A stretch of DNA of 50,796 bases from a virus. Lineage: Duplodnaviria > Heunggongvirae > Uroviricota > Caudoviricetes. Position numbers and translations under genes: made by a program. Where the stretch lies: positions 1-50,796 of the IMG/VR virus record IMGVR_UViG_3300023210_000014. One strand, 5' to 3'. A model generated the notes under the pieces. That model saw nothing but the letters and a program-made list of their open reading frames with translations. It was not told the DNA's origin and did not search any database. Positions 2,560-28,441 of this stretch are shown here, one piece after another (the stretch's first letter is position 1; each line of letters begins with the position of its first letter).

Positions 2560-2633
2560 CGAGTGTTAGCTTAATGGAAAGCACCAAGTTTGGAACTTGG
2601 GGGATTTCAGTTCAACTCTGAAACATTCGACCA
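2560..2633 (+). tRNA. tRNA-Pro(TGG)
   Basis: Cloverleaf, CCAAG-TTTGGAA-CTTGG, C1-G72, A73, encoded CCA. Confidence 0.9.
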
Positions 2634-2638
2634 AACTT

Positions 2639-2714
2639 GGAGCATTAGTTCAATCGGGAGAACACTGGCCTGTCAAGCCAGAGGCAACGGGATCGAAACC
2701 CGTATGCTCCGCCA
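2639..2714 (+). tRNA. tRNA-Asp(GTC)
   Basis: CTGGC-CTGTCAA-GCCAG, G73, CCA; T-loop ATCGAAA. Confidence 0.9.
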
Positions 2715-2724
2715 AATATTCGAT

Positions 2725-2801
2725 GCCGGCGTATGCTAACTGGCAACGCACTTGGTTTTAGAAACCAAGGATTGTGGGTTCGACTCCCTCCGCCGGTACC
2801 A
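2725..2801 (+). tRNA. tRNA-Leu(TAG), short variable loop
   Basis: TTGGT-TTTAGAA-ACCAA, A73, CCA. Confidence 0.8.
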
Positions 2802-2852
2802 AATCGCGGAGTTTTGAGATTCTCGTTCACAGGTAAAAATCTCACATCTTAT

Positions 2853-2924
2853 GGGCCCAACATATGGGATGAACTTCCGCCTTGCACGCGGGATGAGAGG
2901 GATCGTTACCCTCTGGGTCCACCA
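2853..2924 (+). tRNA. tRNA-Ala(TGC)
   Basis: TCCGC-CTTGCAC-GCGGG, G3:U70, CCA; weak D arm. Confidence 0.8.
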
Positions 2925-2930
2925 AATCAA

Positions 2931-3007
2931 TGCTCCTTGGCGAAGCGGTCTAACGCATCAGGTTTTGATCCTGACATCCGTAGGTTCGAATCCTACAGGA
3001 GCATCCA
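2931..3007 (+). tRNA. tRNA-Gln(TTG)
   Basis: TCAGG-TTTTGAT-CCTGA, U1-A72, CCA. Confidence 0.9.
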
Positions 3008-3127
3008 AATTCACTGGGCCCACGAAATCATATACTTGATCTTAACCACATCGAGCTCTTTGATTTCCGGATTGTCCAGAGGCAAGATTCTCAGTGGGTG
3101 GTCCCTATTGCTTGCCTAAAATATTAT

Positions 3128-3212
3128 GCGTCATGAGGAAGCTGGGAAATCCACCGGGCTGTAAACCCGACCTCTAACGAGTTGCTTGGTTCGATTCCAA
3201 GATGGCGCACCA
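3128..3212 (+). tRNA. tRNA-Tyr(GTA)
   Basis: CTGTAAA anticodon loop, long variable arm, A73, CCA. Confidence 0.9.
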
Positions 3213-3328
3213 AATTAAATCGCTAAATTGCCATAACTGGCAACTTAACGCGCTAAACCTTGGTTAAGGTGACATAACTGGCAACTTAGCAAAAAGGTGA
3301 AAAAAGATCATTTATTTTCTGTTTTTTG

Positions 3329-3357
3329 TTTACAATTAGCAGGGAATAGGATATAAT
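3329..3357 (+). promoter_or_regulatory. sigma70-like promoter inside tRNA array, copy 3
   Basis: TTTACA-N17-TATAAT. Confidence 0.85.
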
Positions 3358-3362
3358 GCATC

Positions 3363-3530
3363 TATGGTTAAGAAGAACATCGGTTCAAGCTAACCAACGA
3401 TCTTTGAAAACGAAATTTTTGATTCTCTTGGATACGCCCACTGGTTTAAACTTCGGTTTGAAGATGAGGGTAACACTGAGAGGTCAAAATCAATCCCTGC
3501 CGGCAAAGGGATATAAAACACCCCGGAACA
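3363..3530 (+). ncRNA. structured ncRNA candidate
   Basis: Directly after promoter; stems 3417-3428/3479-3489, UUCG hairpin, terminal H-type pseudoknot. Confidence 0.45.
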
Positions 3531-3536
3531 AATTTT

Positions 3537-3613
3537 GGGTCATTAACTCATCAGGTTAGAGTATCGCCCTTTTAAGGCGAATGCGCTGGGTTCGAGTCCC
3601 AGATGACCCACCA
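3537..3613 (+). tRNA. tRNA-Lys(TTT)
   Basis: TCGCC-CTTTTAA-GGCGA, CCA. Confidence 0.95.
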
Positions 3614-3619
3614 AATTAT

Positions 3620-3696
3620 GGGTAGTTAGCTCAAATGAGTAGAGCGCGAAGCTGTTAACTTCGGAGATATGAGTTCGAGTCTCATACTGCCCTCCA
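3620..3696 (+). tRNA. tRNA-Asn(GTT)
   Basis: CGAAG-CTGTTAA-CTTCG, CCA. Confidence 0.95.
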
Positions 3697-3701
3697 AAAA
3701 A

Positions 3702-3776
3702 ATAATGTTAGTCCAAAGATTTAAATCTGTTGGAAAGTTTGATCAAATTTTGGTATTCAAAAACCACTAACATTAT
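3702..3776 (+). ncRNA. tRNA-sized cloverleaf RNA without CCA
   Basis: Perfect 11-bp closing stem ATAATGTTAGT/ACTAACATTAT enclosing three hairpins. Confidence 0.45.
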
Positions 3777-3836
3777 GAGTTGGATATTGAATGATCAATG
3801 GTTAGTCCCATCATCGACGTTCAACTCAATTTAAAA

Positions 3837-4240
3837 TTGTAGATGAAGAGCTGCCATTTCTTCGAAGAGTAGAGCCAGCAGAACAGTATGAGAAGTTGAT
3901 AGCTTCCTTCCGATTCTCCAGCGACGCTAGGCGTAGTAGACAGATTCTACAAAGGACAAAATCAAAGAGCGAACCTCTGGGTTTTGTCCGAACCAAATCG
4001 AGAATGAAAATTCTCAACGTTGATGCGTCAATACTGTCCGTGAGAGTATAAACTCACCGGGTAGAAATACTTACAGGGTGTTAACCGCATCCGGCAGGAA
4101 TTGACCGTGAGAGCAATTGAAGGTTGCAAACTTTGATTGAACAACTCTCAAAATATTAATGATGGCCGACGCGCAATTCCCTGTCGGTTCAAAAGCAGAT
4201 TTATAATTCTGTCATGCGGTGAAATACCGAAAGGGCTGCT
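3837..4240 (+). ncRNA. large multi-domain structured ncRNA candidate
   Basis: No + strand ORF; many hairpins, long-range pair 4084-4090/4214-4220 and 7-bp pseudoknot 4097-4103/4174-4180. Confidence 0.55.
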
Positions 4241-4247
4241 AAATTGT

Positions 4248-4325
4248 GCACACGTACTCAAGCCTGGTTAAGAGGCTGATCTGATACGTCAGTAGATGTA
4301 GGTTCGAACCCTACCGTGTGCACCA
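4248..4325 (+). tRNA. tRNA-Ile(GAT)
   Basis: CTGAT-CTGATAC-GTCAG, A73, CCA. Confidence 0.9.
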
Positions 4326-4425
4326 AACGAGTCGGTACGGTCTGAAACAAAACCGTCAATCATTTGAGAACTCGAGATATCTCATTTGGTTGTGTAGGCG
4401 AAATTCCTACTGCCAGCAGAATTGT

Positions 4426-4503
4426 GGCTCCGTGGAGTAATTGGCTAACTCGCCAGACTTTCAATCTGGAGATTTGCGGGTTCGATCCCCGTCGGAGCTA
4501 CCA
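4426..4503 (+). tRNA. tRNA-Glu(TTC)
   Basis: CCAGA-CTTTCAA-TCTGG, CCA. Confidence 0.95.
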
Positions 4504-4618
4504 AAAATTTGAGGGGTTGGTTTGTTGGGCAAGCCCAAACGTGTAAAAGCGACAACCTCTTGAAACAATATAGTGGGCTGACATTCCCCTGCTAAAATAA
4601 TAGAATGTCAAAAATTAT

Positions 4619-4699
4619 GGGTGGTCTGATATGGTATTATCGATGGGAGTTAAGCTGCCCGGTTGGTGAATCACGGTTCGAATCCGTAGCCCTCCACCA
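4619..4699 (+). tRNA. degenerate tRNA-Leu(TAA)
   Basis: D arm, T arm, long variable arm, G37, A73, CCA; anticodon stem needs a bulged G and acceptor has one mismatch. Confidence 0.55.
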
Positions 4700-4850
4700 A
4701 AAAATTGAATTGCTTTCACACTAGTCTCTGACTGCAATCAAGTAAGCGATGCCCCGGGAGGTCCTCATGGGGTAATGGAAACATCATCGCGGTATAAGCC
4801 CGAAAATAGAGGGGACTTGAAACAGAAGTTCTGGAGTACGCTCTGGAATA

Positions 4851-4930
4851 TTGGGAGTGGGAGACACAGGTTCAAATCCTGTATTGCCGACCGTAAGGAT
4901 AGCGATTCGTCTAATGGTAGGATACCCACG
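4851..4930 (+). ncRNA. circularly permuted tRNA-Pro-like gene (3' half then 5' half)
   Basis: TTGGGA-GTGGG-AGAC-T arm-ATTGCCG-A, then CC-GTAA-GG linker, then TAGCGAT-TC-D arm-A-CCCAC; cross-half pairing 6/7 bp (acceptor) and 5/5 bp (anticodon stem). Confidence 0.7.
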
Positions 4931-4937
4931 AGAAACT

Positions 4938-5013
4938 GCCCATATAGCTCAATTGGCTAGAGCAACTGACTTGTAATCAGAAGACCGGGGATCGTTACCT
5001 CGTATGGGCTCCA
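4938..5013 (+). tRNA. tRNA-Thr(TGT)
   Basis: CTTGTAA loop, CCA; T-loop ATCGTTA. Confidence 0.9.
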
Positions 5014-5125
5014 GTTTATTGCAAACCGTATTCAGTCGGTATAAATGGGGTTCATATAAAACCTGACTTGCAATATTTAAAATTGAAGTCGGCCAAAGCG
5101 CTCTATTGAGTCGTGCGGCTAACAG

Positions 5126-5217
5126 GGAACATTGACAGAGTGGAAATGTGCTGGCTTGCTAAGCCATGGCCATCGGTGAGAAACGTTGCATTGGTTCGAA
5201 TCCAATATGTTCCTCCA
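5126..5217 (+). tRNA. tRNA-Ser(GCT)
   Basis: TTGCTAA loop, long variable arm, CCA. Confidence 0.85.
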
Positions 5218-5234
5218 CAAGAAAGGGATTGAAT

Positions 5235-5510
5235 ATGACAATTAAGAATATTTATTTGGTCATACGAGATCAAATGCCACTGAAGAGATTCATTAGAAAT
5301 TTCTTCATCACCAGAAATGCTTGGGGTTTATTCCATGAGAATTCTCACATATCATTTGCTAGTGGTTTAGGTAAAGTGACTTACAATACCAAAGAGACTG
5401 CAATTAAATCTGCAGCTTCGATGAGTAAGAAACATAAGAAACATTTTTCTCCATATAAGTGCCTTCATTGCGATGGTTATCACATTGGGAAAAATAGAGA
5501 TAATAAGTAA
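5235..5510 (+). CDS. basic protein with C-terminal YxCxxCxxxH zinc-binding motif, inside the tRNA array
   Basis: AAGGGA RBS; YKCLHCDGYHIG. Confidence 0.7.
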   Translation: MTIKNIYLVIRDQMPLKRFIRNFFITRNAWGLFHENSHISFASGLGKVTYNTKETAIKSAASMSKKHKKHFSPYKCLHCDGYHIGKNRDNK

Positions 5511-5512
5511 TT

Positions 5513-5615
5513 GAGTATGATGGGGCGCCGATTGGATCGACTGGTCAAAATAAACGTTTGTGCCTGTCCCATGAATTCTGTATTGGATCGGACTAAGGGA
5601 TTCATTTTCATACTC
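5513..5615 (+). ncRNA. branched structured RNA candidate
   Basis: 8-bp closing stem GAGTATGA/TCATACTC with two arms each capped by ATTGGATCG. Confidence 0.4.
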
Positions 5616-5623
5616 TAACAATT

Positions 5624-5696
5624 TGCGGAGAGGGTCGGTACCCCATTTGGTCTCATAAGCCAAACTTACTTGATTCAACTTCAAGCTCCGCAACCA
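5624..5696 (+). tRNA. tRNA-Met(CAT), initiator-like acceptor stem
   Basis: TGCGGAG/CTCCGCA-A-CCA, CTCATAA loop; short D arm. Confidence 0.75.
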
Positions 5697-5702
5697 AATT
5701 TT

Positions 5703-5777
5703 GCGGTATTCGTATAACGGCTATTACCTCAGCCTTCCAAGCTGATGACGTGGGATCGTCCCCCACATACCGCTCCA
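5703..5777 (+). tRNA. tRNA-Gly(TCC)
   Basis: TCAGC-CTTCCAA-GCTGA, U73, CCA; T-loop ATCGTCC. Confidence 0.9.
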
Positions 5778-5831
5778 AATTGATTTACAGTTAATTGCAC
5801 TTTCTGTTGTTAATTGTAAACTGAATATTGT

Positions 5832-5908
5832 GCATCCGTAGTATAAATGGCAATTACAACAGCCTCCAAAACTGTTAGATGTGGGTTCAAATCCTACCGG
5901 GTGTGCCA
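5832..5908 (+). tRNA. tRNA-Trp(CCA)
   Basis: CTCCAAA loop, G73, CCA. Confidence 0.9.
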
Positions 5909-6187
5909 AATATCCACCAGCCATGAGATAAGTGCTGGATGGGATGAGAATTCCATTTGAGGATTCTCCATCGAATTGAAAGTTGCTGTTGCGTTTCCCC
6001 AGTTCGGGCGAAGGATGATAATAGCCTTGAGGGTGTTCATTAAGTTTTTAAGATGAGTGAGCTTACTTCTTTCAATTCAAAATAAAAACGCTTACAAAGG
6101 GAGTATTGAAAACGGTTATCTCCCCGTCTGACGAAACAAAACAAACCTGAGTGGAGTTTGAGGACGTTCTCCACTGTTAAAGATTTT

Positions 6188-6263
6188 GCCGCTTGGGTGT
6201 GAAAGGTACGCACGCAAGAGTGAAGCCCTTGAGGAACAGGTTCAATTCCTGTAGGCGGCGCCA
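6188..6263 (+). tRNA. atypical tRNA-Phe(GAA)
   Basis: Acceptor and T arm intact, GTGAAGC loop, A31-C39 mismatch, no U8. Confidence 0.6.
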
Positions 6264-6406
6264 ATATGTTGAGAGATGACGGTTCGAGCCCGTCTGCTGC
6301 TCCACCACTAATGGATTCAAAGGGTTCTTCGGTTTTGTGGTGAAACTGATTTATTCCAGAGATGAAGTTAAAGCAGTATGGTCTAATGGACTATGACGCT
6401 CATATT
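6264..6406 (+). ncRNA. second circularly permuted tRNA-like gene
   Basis: TTGAG-AGAT-T arm-TGCTGCT-CCACCA, ~65-nt linker, then AGCAGTA-TG-D arm-G-CTCAT; acceptor 7/7 bp and anticodon stem 4/5 bp across halves. Confidence 0.65.
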
Positions 6407-6413
6407 TTATTTT

Positions 6414-6492
6414 GGACGATTGGCCGAGCGGTCGAAGGCACTTCTTTTACATGGAAGTATTACCGTAGGTTCGAATCCTACATCGTCCACCA
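6414..6492 (+). tRNA. tRNA-Val(TAC)
   Basis: CTTCT-TTTACAT-GGAAG, A73, CCA. Confidence 0.85.
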
Positions 6493-6520
6493 AGATCGAG
6501 AACACAAGTTCTCAACAAGT

Positions 6521-6596
6521 GTGTCCATAGCTCAATTGGTTAGAGCCCCCGCCTGTGAAGCGGAAGACGAGGATTCAAATTCCTCTGGACACCCCA
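6521..6596 (+). tRNA. tRNA-His(GTG)
   Basis: CTGTGAA loop, C73, CCA; no genomic G-1. Confidence 0.9.
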
Positions 6597-6649
6597 ATCA
6601 TATTGACAGAAGAGTTACAAATTCGTAGTTTTTCTGTCAATATAAAAAT

Positions 6650-6735
6650 GGAGAGTACCGCCGAGGTGGCAAATCGGGTTTGAACCCCGAGGACACGTGC
6701 AAACGTGTGGGTTTCGATTACTCTATTCTCTTCCA
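6650..6735 (+). tRNA. tRNA-Ser(TGA)
   Basis: TCGGG-TTTGAAC-CCCGA, long variable arm, CCA. Confidence 0.85.
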
Positions 6736-6760
6736 CACCTGCCCAAACAAAAACTGAAGG

Positions 6761-6803
6761 GTGGTCTGATAGTTCGCTGTGAAGCGATGGGTTGACCACA
6801 CCA
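6761..6803 (+). ncRNA. armless tRNA-like minihelix ending in ACCA
   Basis: GTGGTC/GACCAC-A-CCA enclosing TCGC-TGTGAA-GCGA hairpin. Confidence 0.4.
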
Positions 6804-6809
6804 AATCGT

Positions 6810-6885
6810 ATCGGGATAGCATAGATGGATACGCACCACGCTCATAACGTGGATCAGGTGGGATCGTTACCCACTCCCGATACCA
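6810..6885 (+). tRNA. tRNA-Met/Ile2(CAT)
   Basis: CCACG-CTCATAA-CGTGG, A73, CCA; T-loop ATCGTTA. Confidence 0.85.
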
Positions 6886-6924
6886 ATTATTGAGAATGAA
6901 ATAACGTAAAAGTAGTTCTCAATC

Positions 6925-7030
6925 GCTAGGTTAATATTGTAGTTTCAGAGCTACAGCGATTTTATGGTTAAGTCATAAGTAAGTTTGGGTTCAAATCCAC
7001 AAACTGATCGTTCTGAAATATTAACCTAGC
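6925..7030 (+). ncRNA. tRNA-elbow-mimic RNA candidate
   Basis: Perfect 14-bp closing stem; inner D-loop-like (GGTTAAG) and T-loop-like (GG-TTCAAAT-CC) hairpins. Confidence 0.5.
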
Positions 7031-7040
7031 ACAAATTATT

Positions 7041-7118
7041 GTATGTGGGCTCTCCTAGGCGGGGACTTTTGGTTGCAACCCATTCGATTTTAGGGTTCGA
7101 ATCCCTACACATACTCCA
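7041..7118 (+). tRNA. tRNA-Cys(GCA)
   Basis: TTGCAAC loop, U73, CCA. Confidence 0.8.
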
Positions 7119-26783: not shown

Positions 26784-27317
26784 ATGAGTAAGAAATGGTA
26801 CACAAGTGATTTTCATTTTAATCACCACAACATTCTAAAATATTGTTCTCGTCCATTTGAAACAATGGATGAAATGCACGATGCAATCATTTATGGAATT
26901 AATTCCACGATCGCACCCAATGATGAATTGTTTATTTTGGGCGATGTATCATTTGATGGTTTTACCAAGATTCAGCATCTGTTGGAACGGATCAAAGGTC
27001 AAAAACATTTAATCATTGGGAATCACGATGCGAAGAATCTTGGAAAGTGGTCAGGATGGAAAAGTGTAAGTCACTATAAGGAAATTAAGGACTCAAAACA
27101 AAAAGTTGTCCTCATGCATTACCCAATTGAGTCTTGGAATGGAATGGCACATGGGGCAATTCATCTTCACGGCCATCGTCATGGAGTTGAAGGAAGATAT
27201 GATGGAATGCCATCCAGACATTTTAGGGAAGACGTTGGAGTTGATCCCTGGAAATTTCAACCAGTGAATCTGGATATGCTAACGACCAAATGGTTGAAAG
27301 AAGGTAAATTGGTATGA
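26784..27317 (+). CDS. calcineurin-like phosphoesterase
   Basis: TSDFHFNH, LGDV, IGNHD, HYP, HLHGHRH, DVGVD. Confidence 0.9.
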   Translation: MSKKWYTSDFHFNHHNILKYCSRPFETMDEMHDAIIYGINSTIAPNDELFILGDVSFDGFTKIQHLLERIKGQKHLIIGNHDAKNLGKWSGWKSVSHYKEIKDSKQKVVLMHYPIESWNGMAHGAIHLHGHRHGVEGRYDGMPSRHFREDVGVDPWKFQPVNLDMLTTKWLKEGKLV

Positions 27318-28441
27318 CTTGGAAAACAAATAAACCATATAAAATTTTTGCCGATATGAAAACACTAGAACAAGGGGCTTTAGATCAATTTACTGAGGCC
27401 ATGGATATCCCGTGGGTAATTACCGGGGCTTTGATGCCAGATGCTCACGTTGGATATACTTTACCTATTGGGGGAGTTATTGCTACAAAAGACATGATTG
27501 TGCCAAGTTACTGCGGTGTTGATATTGGGTGTGGAATGTGTGCAGCAAAATTTGACGGATTAAAACGTGAAGATATTGAAGATCGTAAAGATGAAATATT
27601 TGATGGAATATATCGTGCAATTCCAGTTGGATTCAATCACCACAAAAAAGATGAAAAATGGTTGACACCAGCAATGAAGAATTACAAGATTTATTCGAAC
27701 ACTGATATTATGGCTCGTGCAATTGAATTGCGAAATCCATTGAAACAAATTGGGACACTTGGTGGAGGCAACCATTTCATAGAAATAGGTTATGATGAAG
27801 ATGATGATGTGTGGGCAATCTTACATTCGGGTTCTCGTGGATTTGGATATTACATTGCGAATGAATATGTTAAACTTGCGCATCCAGAAGGTAAAGTCAA
27901 AGATGGTCATTATGGGTTCCACATTGATTCAAAGAATGGTGAAGATTATTATTGTGATATGAACATTGCGTTGGACTTTGCATTGGCAAATAGAATGCAC
28001 ATGTTGGCCGCAATCTCTGGTGTTATTGGATGTGGATATATTGAAGATTCGTTCATTAATAGAAATCACAACCATGCCGAATTGGCTCACAATATGATCA
28101 TCCACCGTAAAGGTGCAACTCATGCTGAAGAAGGAATGATGGGAGTTATTCCGGGTAACATGCGTGACGGTTCTTTTATTGTCAAAGGTAAAGGAAATCC
28201 AGACGCACTTTGGTCCAGTTCTCATGGAGCAGGAAGAGTGTTAGGTCGTAAGGCTGCTAAGAAAGCTTTGGATATGGAAACATTCAAAAACGATATGGTC
28301 GGCATCAAGGCAAAGGTTGTAAAAGATACTTTGGATGAATCTGCCGGAGCATACAAGGATATTTTTGAGGTTATGGAACTTCAAAAGGACTTGGTTGAAA
28401 TTATTCACCACGTCAAACCTCTAATAAATATAAAAGCATAA
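27314..28441 (+). CDS. rtcB: RtcB-family RNA-splicing/repair ligase
   Basis: MPDAHVG, GVDIGCGM, GTLGGGNHFIE, HSGSRG, NRNHN, HRKGA, IPGNM, SSSHGAGR, DESAGAYK. Confidence 0.95.
   Translation: MTWKTNKPYKIFADMKTLEQGALDQFTEAMDIPWVITGALMPDAHVGYTLPIGGVIATKDMIVPSYCGVDIGCGMCAAKFDGLKREDIEDRKDEIFDGIYRAIPVGFNHHKKDEKWLTPAMKNYKIYSNTDIMARAIELRNPLKQIGTLGGGNHFIEIGYDEDDDVWAILHSGSRGFGYYIANEYVKLAHPEGKVKDGHYGFHIDSKNGEDYYCDMNIALDFALANRMHMLAAISGVIGCGYIEDSFINRNHNHAELAHNMIIHRKGATHAEEGMMGVIPGNMRDGSFIVKGKGNPDALWSSSHGAGRVLGRKAAKKALDMETFKNDMVGIKAKVVKDTLDESAGAYKDIFEVMELQKDLVEIIHHVKPLINIKA

What the first reader, a model, noticed from the sequence alone, without database searches (positions are those of the whole stretch)
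6264..6406. Second, independent permuted tRNA-like gene between tRNA-Phe and tRNA-Val
Seen: the 3' half (TTGAG 6269-6273, AGAT, GACGG-TTCGAGC-CCGTC, TGCTGCT 6295-6301, CCACCA) starts right after the Phe CCA. About 65 nt later comes a 5' half (AGCAGTA 6372-6378, TG, GTC-TAATGGACTAT-GAC, G, CTCAT). The acceptor pairs 7/7 and the anticodon stem 4/5. The termini can extend as a 3-nt bulge plus a 4-bp helix (AATA/TATT), and the CCA end can be sequestered by GTGGTG (6337-6342). The D-loop has A20, an Arg identity element, and Arg is the only amino acid missing from the array. Inference: two unrelated sequences with the same permuted topology argue for a selected RNA class rather than one rearrangement accident; processing of the flanking tRNAs would release it.
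Basis: partly seen in the sequence, partly recalled or inferred. Interest (0 to 1): 0.85.

Follow-up and report, generated by a model that had tools for sequence, protein, structure and literature searches.

The report
Rearranged tRNA look-alike in phage array
Between two ordinary tRNA genes of an uncultured marine phage lies a complete tRNA whose two halves are in swapped order; it most likely makes a small tRNA-shaped RNA that mimics a tRNA and does not decode, but this could not be tested for lack of RNA data and of readable relatives.

Summary
At 6269-6410, between tRNA-Phe and tRNA-Val, all parts of one tRNA occur in circularly permuted order. Put back in normal order, ARAGORN calls it a tRNA (anticodon UUU); shuffled-half controls fail. 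A second, unrelated element (E1, 4850-4937) has the same layout. A third sits behind its own promoter in a distant relative.

Best reading (about 0.5): a tRNA-shaped non-coding RNA, released when the flanking tRNAs are processed. Its ends sit where the anticodon loop would be, and its acceptor arm is closed by a 70-nt linker (CCACCA plus 64 nt) or cut there by RNase P. This is the layout of the tRNA-like module of bacterial and phage YrlA Y RNAs. It is not a YrlA member: no Rfam match, no Ro60-binding motif, no Ro60-like gene in the 114.8-kb record.

The tRNA-Arg idea is not supported. The loop-like tail reads UUU. Relatives keep their Arg tRNAs in a second cluster, which here would lie beyond the contig start. 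An archaeal or algal-type permuted-tRNA pathway is not supported either.

A decaying relic of a tandem tRNA pair remains a serious rival (about 0.27). Diverged relatives in one vent metagenome keep E2 at almost the same length.

This scan has noted permuted tRNA-like modules in other phages. The ACAGCAA handle and DUF2828 gene reported for those are absent here.

The parts
6188..6263 (+). Upstream tRNA-Phe with encoded CCA; its 3' maturation would set the 5' side of the element
   Evidence: Rfam tRNA 38.8 bits at 6188-6260; CCA at 6261-6263 read
6264..6268 (+). 5-nt spacer ATATG between the Phe CCA and the element
6269..6273 (+). Anticodon-stem 3' strand (positions 39-43), TTGAG
   Evidence: pairs 4/5 with CTCAT 6399-6403
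6274..6277 (+). 4-nt variable region AGAT (A44, G45, A46, U48)
   Evidence: same length and AGAY form as in E1
6278..6294 (+). T arm, 5-bp stem and TTCGAGC loop
6295..6301 (+). Acceptor 3' strand TGCTGCT
   Evidence: 7/7 with AGCAGTA 6372-6378
6302..6307 (+). CCACCA tail; not a canonical discriminator plus CCA; can pair with GTGGTG 6337-6342
6308..6371 (+). 64-nt linker closing the acceptor stem. It folds into one or two hairpins and begins with CTAATGGA, the same 8-mer as in the D loop of the 5' half.
6372..6378 (+). Acceptor 5' strand AGCAGTA; predicted RNase P site just before it (6371/6372)
   Evidence: pairing; the cleavage site is inferred from the 7-bp acceptor plus T arm and from M. 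smegmatis YrlA (PMC4201824)
6379..6398 (+). U8 G9, D arm (GTC, 11-nt loop with A14, G18, G19, A21, then GAC) and G26
6399..6403 (+). Anticodon-stem 5' strand CTCAT (positions 27-31)
6404..6413 (+). 3' tail: anticodon-loop-like ATTTTAT (6404-6410), then TTT up to the RNase P site of Val
   Evidence: ARAGORN reads the anticodon as ttt in the un-permuted construct
6414..6492 (+). Downstream tRNA-Val(tac); RNase P cleavage at its 5' end would make the 3' end of the element
4850..4937 (+). Sister element E1, in this order: loop-like ATTGGGA, GTGGG, AGAC, T arm, ATTGCCG, 10-nt linker, TAGCGAT, TC, D arm, A, CCCAC, 8-nt tail, then tRNA-Thr
   Evidence: T-stem compensatory changes in the X5 relative

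Best explanation
E2 is a tRNA-derived gene for a small non-coding RNA that keeps the tRNA shape but has a rearranged backbone. It is transcribed as part of the polycistronic tRNA precursor.

Proposed steps:
1. RNase P cutting at the 5' end of tRNA-Val makes its 3' end.
2. 3' maturation of tRNA-Phe frees its 5' end.
3. The RNA folds into a four-way junction with a normal T arm, D arm and elbow. Its two ends form the helix that corresponds to the anticodon stem. Its acceptor stem is closed by a structured 70-nt linker (CCACCA plus 64 nt).
4. Because the acceptor stem has 7 bp next to a T arm, RNase P may also cut at 6371/6372. That would give a two-piece tRNA-shaped complex with a CCA-like 3' end, as reported for Mycobacterium smegmatis YrlA.

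It cannot decode, because the anticodon loop is open. Most likely it acts as a tRNA mimic that binds or titrates a protein which recognises the tRNA body. Candidates are a host tRNA-targeting nuclease, a processing or modification enzyme, or an RNA-repair factor.

Shown: the anatomy, its non-chance nature, its recurrence, and its retention in relatives.
Inferred: the processing steps, the fold in vivo, and the mimic function.
For: - All tRNA parts and tertiary-contact bases are present in permuted order.
- ARAGORN calls the un-permuted construct a tRNA, and shuffled halves fail.
- A chance partner arose in 0.2% of shuffles.
- E1, unrelated in sequence, has the same layout and also sits directly upstream of a tRNA.
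- L003 4774-4882 has the same order of arms, an 8-bp terminal helix and a closed, extended acceptor arm. It lies between a terminator-like site and its own promoter-like site on one side and the next gene's promoter on the other. Closer relatives lack this insert.
- Two diverged contigs from a vent metagenome cover E2: 6266-6500 with 26 substitutions and 1 gap, and 6322-6500 with 33 substitutions and 1 gap. Neighbouring spacers in the same contigs carry 6 and 13 gaps. The only change shared by both contigs inside E2 is at unpaired position 26.
- In the same relative, the T stem of E1 changed ACAGG/CCTGT to GCTGG/CCAGC, which is two compensatory pairs. Its loop-like tail lost a T. This fits selection on shape and not on decoding.
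- Published precedent: the YrlA tRNA-like domain has the order V, T arm, acceptor-like stem-loop, D arm. It is modified by TruB and DusA. The M. smegmatis form, with a 7-bp acceptor stem, is cut by RNase P and receives CCA (PMC4201824).
Against: - No RNA data exist for this phage.
- I could not read the relatives' E2 sequences, so covariation in E2 itself is untested.
- More distant relatives with a syntenic array lack it: in L029, Phe is followed directly by Tyr.
- The permuted cloverleaf is 5.4 kcal/mol less stable than the minimum-energy fold, and the fold z-score is only -1.1.
- The anticodon stem has a T-T mismatch and is only 4 bp.
- Up to 23 of the 26 substitutions of the closer relative may lie in the 148 nt of E2, so its sequence is not strongly conserved.
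- No partner protein is known. No Ro60-like gene was found in the record.
Confidence: 0.5

Rival explanations
1. Decaying relic. An ancestral tandem pair of identical tRNA genes lost the outer half of each copy. This left the 3' half of copy 1, the spacer and the 5' half of copy 2. The transcript is processed away and has no role.
For: - E1's linker (A, CCG, TAAGGA) looks like a discriminator base, a decayed CCA and a normal inter-tRNA spacer.
- E2's linker begins with an 8-mer copy of its own D loop, which suggests a duplication history.
- Junctions of adjacent tRNAs with matching acceptor stems give the same pattern in unrelated phages: L017, L019.
- E2 is absent from more distant relatives.
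- The array holds several other tRNA-like fragments.
- Anticodon stem mismatch, odd CCACCA tail, weak thermodynamic signal.
Against: - Two independent deletions must each stop at the edge of the anticodon loop, in two separate elements, leaving neither a gap nor an overlap.
- All four helices and all tertiary-contact bases are intact in E2.
- The block is kept at nearly constant length in relatives 11-18% diverged, whereas the two other compared stretches of the same contigs gain 6 and 13 gaps.
- E1 shows compensatory T-stem changes.
- A third such element has its own promoter.
Confidence: 0.27
2. True circularly permuted tRNA gene. The ends are trimmed and joined across the anticodon loop by a phage RNA ligase (Rnl2 or RtcB). 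The circle is then opened by RNase P and 3' trimming, which gives a working tRNA.
For: - Full tRNA content, including a loop-like 7-mer with T33 and A37.
- Rnl2 (1-792) and RtcB (27314-28441) are encoded in the window.
- RNase P and RNase E products carry the 3'-OH and 5'-P ends that Rnl2-type ligases use (established enzymology).
Against: - Joining the natural ends would give a 15-nt loop. Nothing defines exact trimming of TTT and ATATG.
- No bulge-helix-bulge and no splicing endonuclease.
- No ribozyme or other Rfam family flanks it.
- The tail is CCACCA, without a proper discriminator plus CCA.
- The anticodons UUU (E2) and UGG (E1) are already served by canonical tRNAs at 3537 and 2560.
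- The E1 orthologue in the relative has lost a base of its loop.
- The Arg assignment has no anticodon support.
Confidence: 0.07
3. Cis-acting structured spacer. The tRNA-like fold serves only to guide or pace RNase P and RNase E processing of the neighbouring tRNAs (Phe, Val; Thr for E1), or to protect the precursor. It is degraded afterwards.
For: - Both elements end 8-10 nt before a tRNA 5' end.
- E2 begins 5 nt after a CCA end.
- Being tRNA-like, it would recruit RNase P locally (inference).
Against: - Most tRNAs in this array are separated by only 5-10 nt and need no such element.
- The L003 element is a separate transcription unit that is not next to a tRNA.
Confidence: 0.08

Closest known systems
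tRNA-like domain of YrlA Y RNAs of bacteria and mycobacteriophages (Rfam RF02553; Chen et al. 2014, PMC4201824)
   Same: - Same backbone order: variable region, T arm, acceptor-like stem closed by a loop, D arm, with the RNA ends forming the helix in place of the anticodon arm.
- The tRNA tertiary-contact bases are kept, including the A15-U48 form of the Levitt pair.
- M. smegmatis YrlA has a 7-bp acceptor stem, is cut by RNase P and gains CCA. E2 has a 7-bp stem and an encoded CCA-like tail.
   Different: - No match to the Rfam model, even at E up to 10.
- No GNCGAAN0-1G Ro60-binding motif and no room for a long terminal stem.
- No TROVE or DUF2828 gene in the 114.8-kb record.
- It lies inside a tRNA operon between two tRNAs, not beside a Ro60 gene.
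- It keeps a loop-like single-stranded tail.
Circularly permuted tRNA genes of the red alga Cyanidioschyzon merolae and other algae and archaea (from my own knowledge; reviewed in PMC4090602 and PMC3400036, found but not read)
   Same: The 3' half lies upstream of the 5' half on one strand with a linker between the acceptor strands. The break lies at the anticodon loop.
   Different: - Those precursors end in a bulge-helix-bulge that is cut by the splicing endonuclease and then ligated into a circle.
- Here there is a single bulge, no endonuclease gene, a bacterial-virus setting and a non-canonical 3' tail.
Two-piece (circularly permuted) tmRNA genes of alphaproteobacteria and cyanobacteria (from my own knowledge)
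   Same: The gene is permuted so that the T arm, the 3' acceptor strand and CCA precede the 5' acceptor strand. The linker is removed by processing to give a two-piece RNA.
   Different: - ARAGORN, which detects permuted tmRNA, reports none.
- There is a full D arm and an anticodon-stem equivalent.
- There is no room for a tag reading frame, because tRNA-Val starts 10 nt after the 5' half.
ACAGCAA-handle small RNAs beside Ro60-like DUF2828 genes in phages
   Same: These are small RNAs in phage tRNA arrays. Some of them display permuted tRNA-like parts.
   Different: - No ACAGCAA on the + strand of the array.
- No closing stem around E1 or E2.
- No DUF2828 gene in the record.

Membership tests
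Circularly permuted tRNA gene (algal/archaeal type) | 3' half upstream of the 5' half on the same strand, with acceptor strands complementary | tested here: met
   Acceptor 7/7; order confirmed
Circularly permuted tRNA gene (algal/archaeal type) | The halves rebuild a canonical cloverleaf with a 7-nt anticodon loop and a discriminator plus CCA (or a site for CCA addition) | tested here: inconclusive
   ARAGORN calls tRNA-Lys(ttt) when 6372-6410 is joined to 6269-6307. This ignores 3 + 5 extra nt at the natural ends, and the tail is CCACCA.
Circularly permuted tRNA gene (algal/archaeal type) | Bulge-helix-bulge at the precursor termini, and a splicing endonuclease to cut it | tested here: not met
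   Only one 3-nt bulge, and the outer AATA/TATT helix uses A76 of Phe. PF01974 is absent from the record.
Circularly permuted tRNA gene (algal/archaeal type) | Circular intermediate and a mature, chargeable tRNA | not testable with these tools
   No RNA runs are listed for this DNA
YrlA Y RNA (RF02553) | Order T arm, acceptor-like stem-loop, D arm, with the ends paired in place of the anticodon arm | tested here: met
   compared with PMC4201824
YrlA Y RNA (RF02553) | Match to the Rfam covariance model | tested here: not met
   No RF02553 match on E2 or E1 at E up to 10. The only weak RF02553 matches lie at junctions of adjacent tRNAs.
YrlA Y RNA (RF02553) | GNCGAAN0-1G Ro60-binding motif near the 5' end | tested here: not met
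   Read directly: tRNA-Phe ends 5 nt upstream of E2, and no such motif lies in 6255-6275 or upstream of E1
YrlA Y RNA (RF02553) | Ro60/TROVE gene within about 4 kb on the same strand | tested here: not met
   PF05731 and PF11443 are absent from the 114.8-kb record. The record is estimated to be about 50% complete, so absence from the whole phage is not shown.
Two-piece tmRNA | Permuted tRNA-like domain joined to a tag reading frame and pseudoknots | tested here: not met
   ARAGORN finds no tmRNA. tRNA-Val starts 10 nt after the 5' half.
tRNA-Arg | Arg anticodon (NCG, NCU) with C35; A20 is secondary | tested here: not met
   A20 is present, but the only loop-like segment reads TTT
ACAGCAA-handle RNAs (notes of this scan) | 7-9 bp closing stem followed by unpaired ACAGCAA, with a DUF2828 gene nearby | tested here: not met

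The most novel reading that the evidence does not exclude
E2 (and E1) are true circularly permuted tRNA genes of a bacteriophage. The precursor ends, held together by the anticodon stem, are sealed by the phage's own Rnl2 or RtcB. RNase P then opens the circle at the acceptor stem. This would be the first permuted tRNA maturation pathway outside algae and archaea, and a constructive role for phage RNA-repair ligases.
Probability: 0.06. Interest if true: 0.9.

Novelty: new variant of a known kind. Interest (0 to 1): 0.5.

Why it matters
Large phages carry tRNA arrays whose 'spacers' are rarely annotated. This element shows that such spacers can hold complete tRNA bodies with a rearranged backbone, which standard tRNA finders and Rfam do not report.

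If it is a working mimic, the YrlA-type design would extend to phages that appear to lack Ro60. That design is a tRNA shape with its ends at the anticodon side. It would then point to an unknown partner, possibly in the conflict between host tRNA-cutting defences and phage RNA repair.

If it is a relic, it records how tRNA mimics can arise from tandem tRNA pairs.

Tried and rejected
Searches for relatives:
- INPHARED phages, blastn with 5900-6700: no match.
- IMG/VR exact and degenerate patterns for E2, E1 and the L003 element returned only ordinary tRNAs, tandem tRNAs or the same contig.
- Flanking proteins gave only distant relatives (45-76% identity) whose arrays lack E2.
- Capsid relatives are 60-73% identical. 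Only one further record among them (G004) holds tRNAs, and my scan found no such element in its tRNA region L012.
- I tried to reach the vent-metagenome contigs through a spurious ORF over E2. Only an identical copy is on record.

RNA evidence: no RNA holder is listed for this DNA.

Models and folds:
- A covariance model built from E1 alone does not separate E2 from junctions of adjacent tRNAs. E2 scored 11 bits; the junctions scored 12-18 bits.
- MAFFT cannot align the three elements beyond the T arm, so no joint model was built.
- Minimum-energy folding does not recover the cloverleaf. This is weak evidence either way, because tertiary contacts are not modelled.

Readings considered and rejected: tmRNA, a ribozyme-flanked circle, an intron-split tRNA with Phe as the insert, and pairing of the 3' half with any upstream 5' strand.

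No CCA-adding enzyme gene was found in the record.

Full report
**What the window is.** The window is the first 50.8 kb of a 114.8-kb linear IMG/VR virus record, estimated to be about half complete.
- It encodes a terminase, portal, T4-type major head protein and tail sheath.
- The nearest cultured capsids are those of Microcystis phage Mel-JY01 (about 50% identity) and Flavobacterium phage immuto (about 45%).
- Identical DNA occurs in several seawater metagenomes.
- All tRNA genes of the record lie at 2560-7115 on the + strand. ARAGORN. Rfam adds Phe at 6188, and weak Cys and Ala.

**The observation.**
- Five nt after the CCA of tRNA-Phe come, in order:
  - the 3' strand of an anticodon stem (6269-6273);
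  - a 4-nt variable region;
  - a perfect T arm (6278-6294);
  - a 7-nt acceptor 3' strand (6295-6301);
  - CCACCA;
  - a 64-nt linker;
  - the acceptor 5' strand (6372-6378);
  - U8 G9;
  - a 3-bp D arm with an 11-nt loop;
  - G26;
  - the 5' strand of the anticodon stem (6399-6403).
- The next 7 nt (ATTTTAT) have the form of an anticodon loop, with T33 and A37. Three T follow, and tRNA-Val starts at 6414. The element is therefore one complete tRNA opened between positions 38 and 39.
- The bases of the standard tertiary contacts are all present (read directly): U8-A14-A21, A15-U48, G18/G19 with T55/C56, G26-A44, T54-A58, G53-C61.
- Put back in normal order, it is called tRNA-Lys(ttt) by ARAGORN. 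Shuffling either half abolishes the call (1/500 and 0/500).
- A chance partner of this quality in the 112 nt downstream arises in 0.2% of shuffles.
- No other 7/7 partner for the acceptor 3' strand makes a normal tRNA with it.

**The sister element.** E1 (4850-4937) has the same order of parts:
- a loop-like ATTGGGA, GTGGG, AGAC, a T arm and ATTGCCG;
- a 10-nt linker that looks like a discriminator base, a decayed CCA and a spacer;
- then TAGCGAT, TC, a D arm, A and CCCAC;
- eight nt later, tRNA-Thr.

E1 is opened between positions 31 and 32. Un-permuted, it is called tRNA-Pro(tgg). E1 and E2 share no sequence beyond general tRNA features.

**A control that matters.** My descriptor scan also hits junctions of adjacent complete tRNAs whose acceptor stems match, in unrelated phages (L017, L019, L021, L024). 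Chen et al. warned of exactly this artefact for YrlA searches. E1 and E2 differ because neither half belongs to a complete tRNA.

**Relatives.**
- No homologue of E2 was found in INPHARED or IMG/VR.
- Relatives reached through the neighbouring phosphoesterase (45-76% identity) have a syntenic array start (Pro, Asp, Leu, Ala...) but no E2. In L029, Phe is followed directly by Tyr.
- These relatives carry a second tRNA cluster, with two or three Arg tRNAs, upstream of the phosphoesterase gene. In this record that position lies beyond the contig start. This accounts for the 'missing' Arg without invoking E2.
- Contigs of one hydrothermal vent metagenome (X5) do hold diverged relatives:
  - One contig covers 6266-6500 with 26 substitutions and 1 gap.
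  - A second contig covers 6322-6500 with 33 substitutions and 1 gap.
  - The Phe region is replaced by 92 other letters.
  - Neighbouring spacers carry 6 and 13 gaps.
  - The only change inside E2 shared by both contigs is at unpaired position 26.
- I could not see the other letters. Covariation within E2 therefore stays untested.
- For E1, the same run shows ACAGG/CCTGT changed to GCTGG/CCAGC, which is two compensatory pairs. It also shows loss of one T from the loop-like tail.

**A third example.** In the distant relative L003 (phosphoesterase 45% identical), positions 4774-4882 carry the following:
- an 8-bp terminal helix;
- a 4-nt variable region;
- a canonical T arm;
- an A/U-rich acceptor-like stem extended by a closed hairpin;
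- U8 and a 4-bp D arm with A14, G18 and G19.

It lies after a terminator-like hairpin and a promoter-like site (TTGACT, 17 nt, TATGCT), and before the promoter of the next gene. Closer relatives have only that promoter in the same gap. It is therefore a separate small-RNA gene with the same rearranged tRNA layout.

**What it works like.** The layout is that of the tRNA-like domain of YrlA Y RNAs: V region, T arm, acceptor-like stem-loop and D arm, with the ends paired where the anticodon arm would be (PMC4201824).
- YrlA is modified by tRNA enzymes.
- The M. smegmatis form, the one with a 7-bp acceptor stem, is cut by RNase P and receives CCA.
- E2 has a 7-bp stem, an encoded CCA-like tail and a long linker. 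A similar two-piece product is therefore plausible.

Membership in YrlA fails on every other defining feature:
- no Rfam match, even at E up to 10;
- no GNCGAA motif;
- no TROVE or DUF2828 gene in the record.

The ACAGCAA-handle RNAs noted elsewhere by this scan are not present either.

**Why not a working permuted tRNA.**
- The natural ends would give a 15-nt loop.
- There is one bulge and not a bulge-helix-bulge.
- No splicing endonuclease and no flanking ribozyme was found.
- The 3' tail lacks a proper discriminator plus CCA.
- The anticodons UUU and UGG are already served by canonical tRNAs at 3537 and 2560.
- Rnl2 (1-792) and RtcB (27314-28441) are present. These are common phage RNA-repair genes (PMC7824862) and give no specific link to E2.

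**Why a relic is not excluded.**
- E2 is restricted to a narrow lineage.
- Its linker begins with a copy of its own D-loop 8-mer.
- Its predicted cloverleaf is 5.4 kcal/mol above the minimum-energy fold.
- Its sequence may have diverged as fast as the spacers.

**Verdict.**
- The idea of a recurrent, probably selected RNA layout is partly supported.
- The tRNA-Arg and bulge-helix-bulge ideas are not supported.
- Best reading: a tRNA mimic of the YrlA type without the Ro60 parts (0.5).
- Rivals: a relic of a tandem tRNA pair (0.27), a processing spacer (0.08), a true permuted tRNA (0.07).

Noticed in passing
window 6925-7030: A perfect 14-bp inverted repeat (GCTAGGTTAATATT / AATATTAACCTAGC) clamps a 78-nt insert. 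The insert holds a small hairpin, a possible 7-bp acceptor-like stem (AGCGATT/GATCGTT) and a T-loop-like TGGGTTCAAATCC. It looks like another unannotated structured RNA between Met/Ile2 and Cys.
   Followed up: partly
window 4619-4700 and 6759-6808: Two elements start with the same GGGTGGTCTGATA and end in ACCA after an acceptor-like 3' strand. The first has a T arm; the second is a mini-helix of about 50 nt. Neither is called by ARAGORN or Rfam.
   Followed up: no
L003 4774-4882 (same phage as L016 3289-3397): A stand-alone permuted tRNA-like small-RNA gene with its own promoter-like site, inserted upstream of a DUF2958 gene. It is absent from the same gap in L025, L027 and L029.
   Followed up: partly
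L025 7467-9311, L027 7288-9909, L029 5126-9347: Relatives carry a second tRNA cluster (Arg x2-3, Ile-tat, Lys, Gln, plus Glu-ctc in L025 and L027) upstream of the phosphoesterase gene. In this record that region lies beyond the contig start, and Rnl2 sits there instead.
   Followed up: partly
window 2899-2910, 4988-4999, 6860-6871: Ala, Thr and the second Met-type tRNA share an unusual T arm, GGGATCGTTACC, with A at position 54 and T at position 58 in place of the usual T54-A58. Gly and Asp have related variants.
   Followed up: no
window 3997-4018 and 6495-6516: Similar hairpins (GAGAAT...ATTCTC and GAGAAC...GTTCTC) follow CCAAATC / CCAAGATC ends. The first one suggests that another RNA with a CCA-like end stops near 3995, in a stretch with no called tRNA.
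   Followed up: no
window 5236-5510: A small ORF inside the tRNA array, between Ser and Met, ends with a C-x2-C...H motif. In the X5 relative it is replaced by 169 other letters.
   Followed up: no
window 6308-6315 vs 6383-6390: The linker of E2 starts with CTAATGGA, identical to the D-loop 8-mer of its own 5' half. This may be a trace of a duplication history.
   Followed up: no
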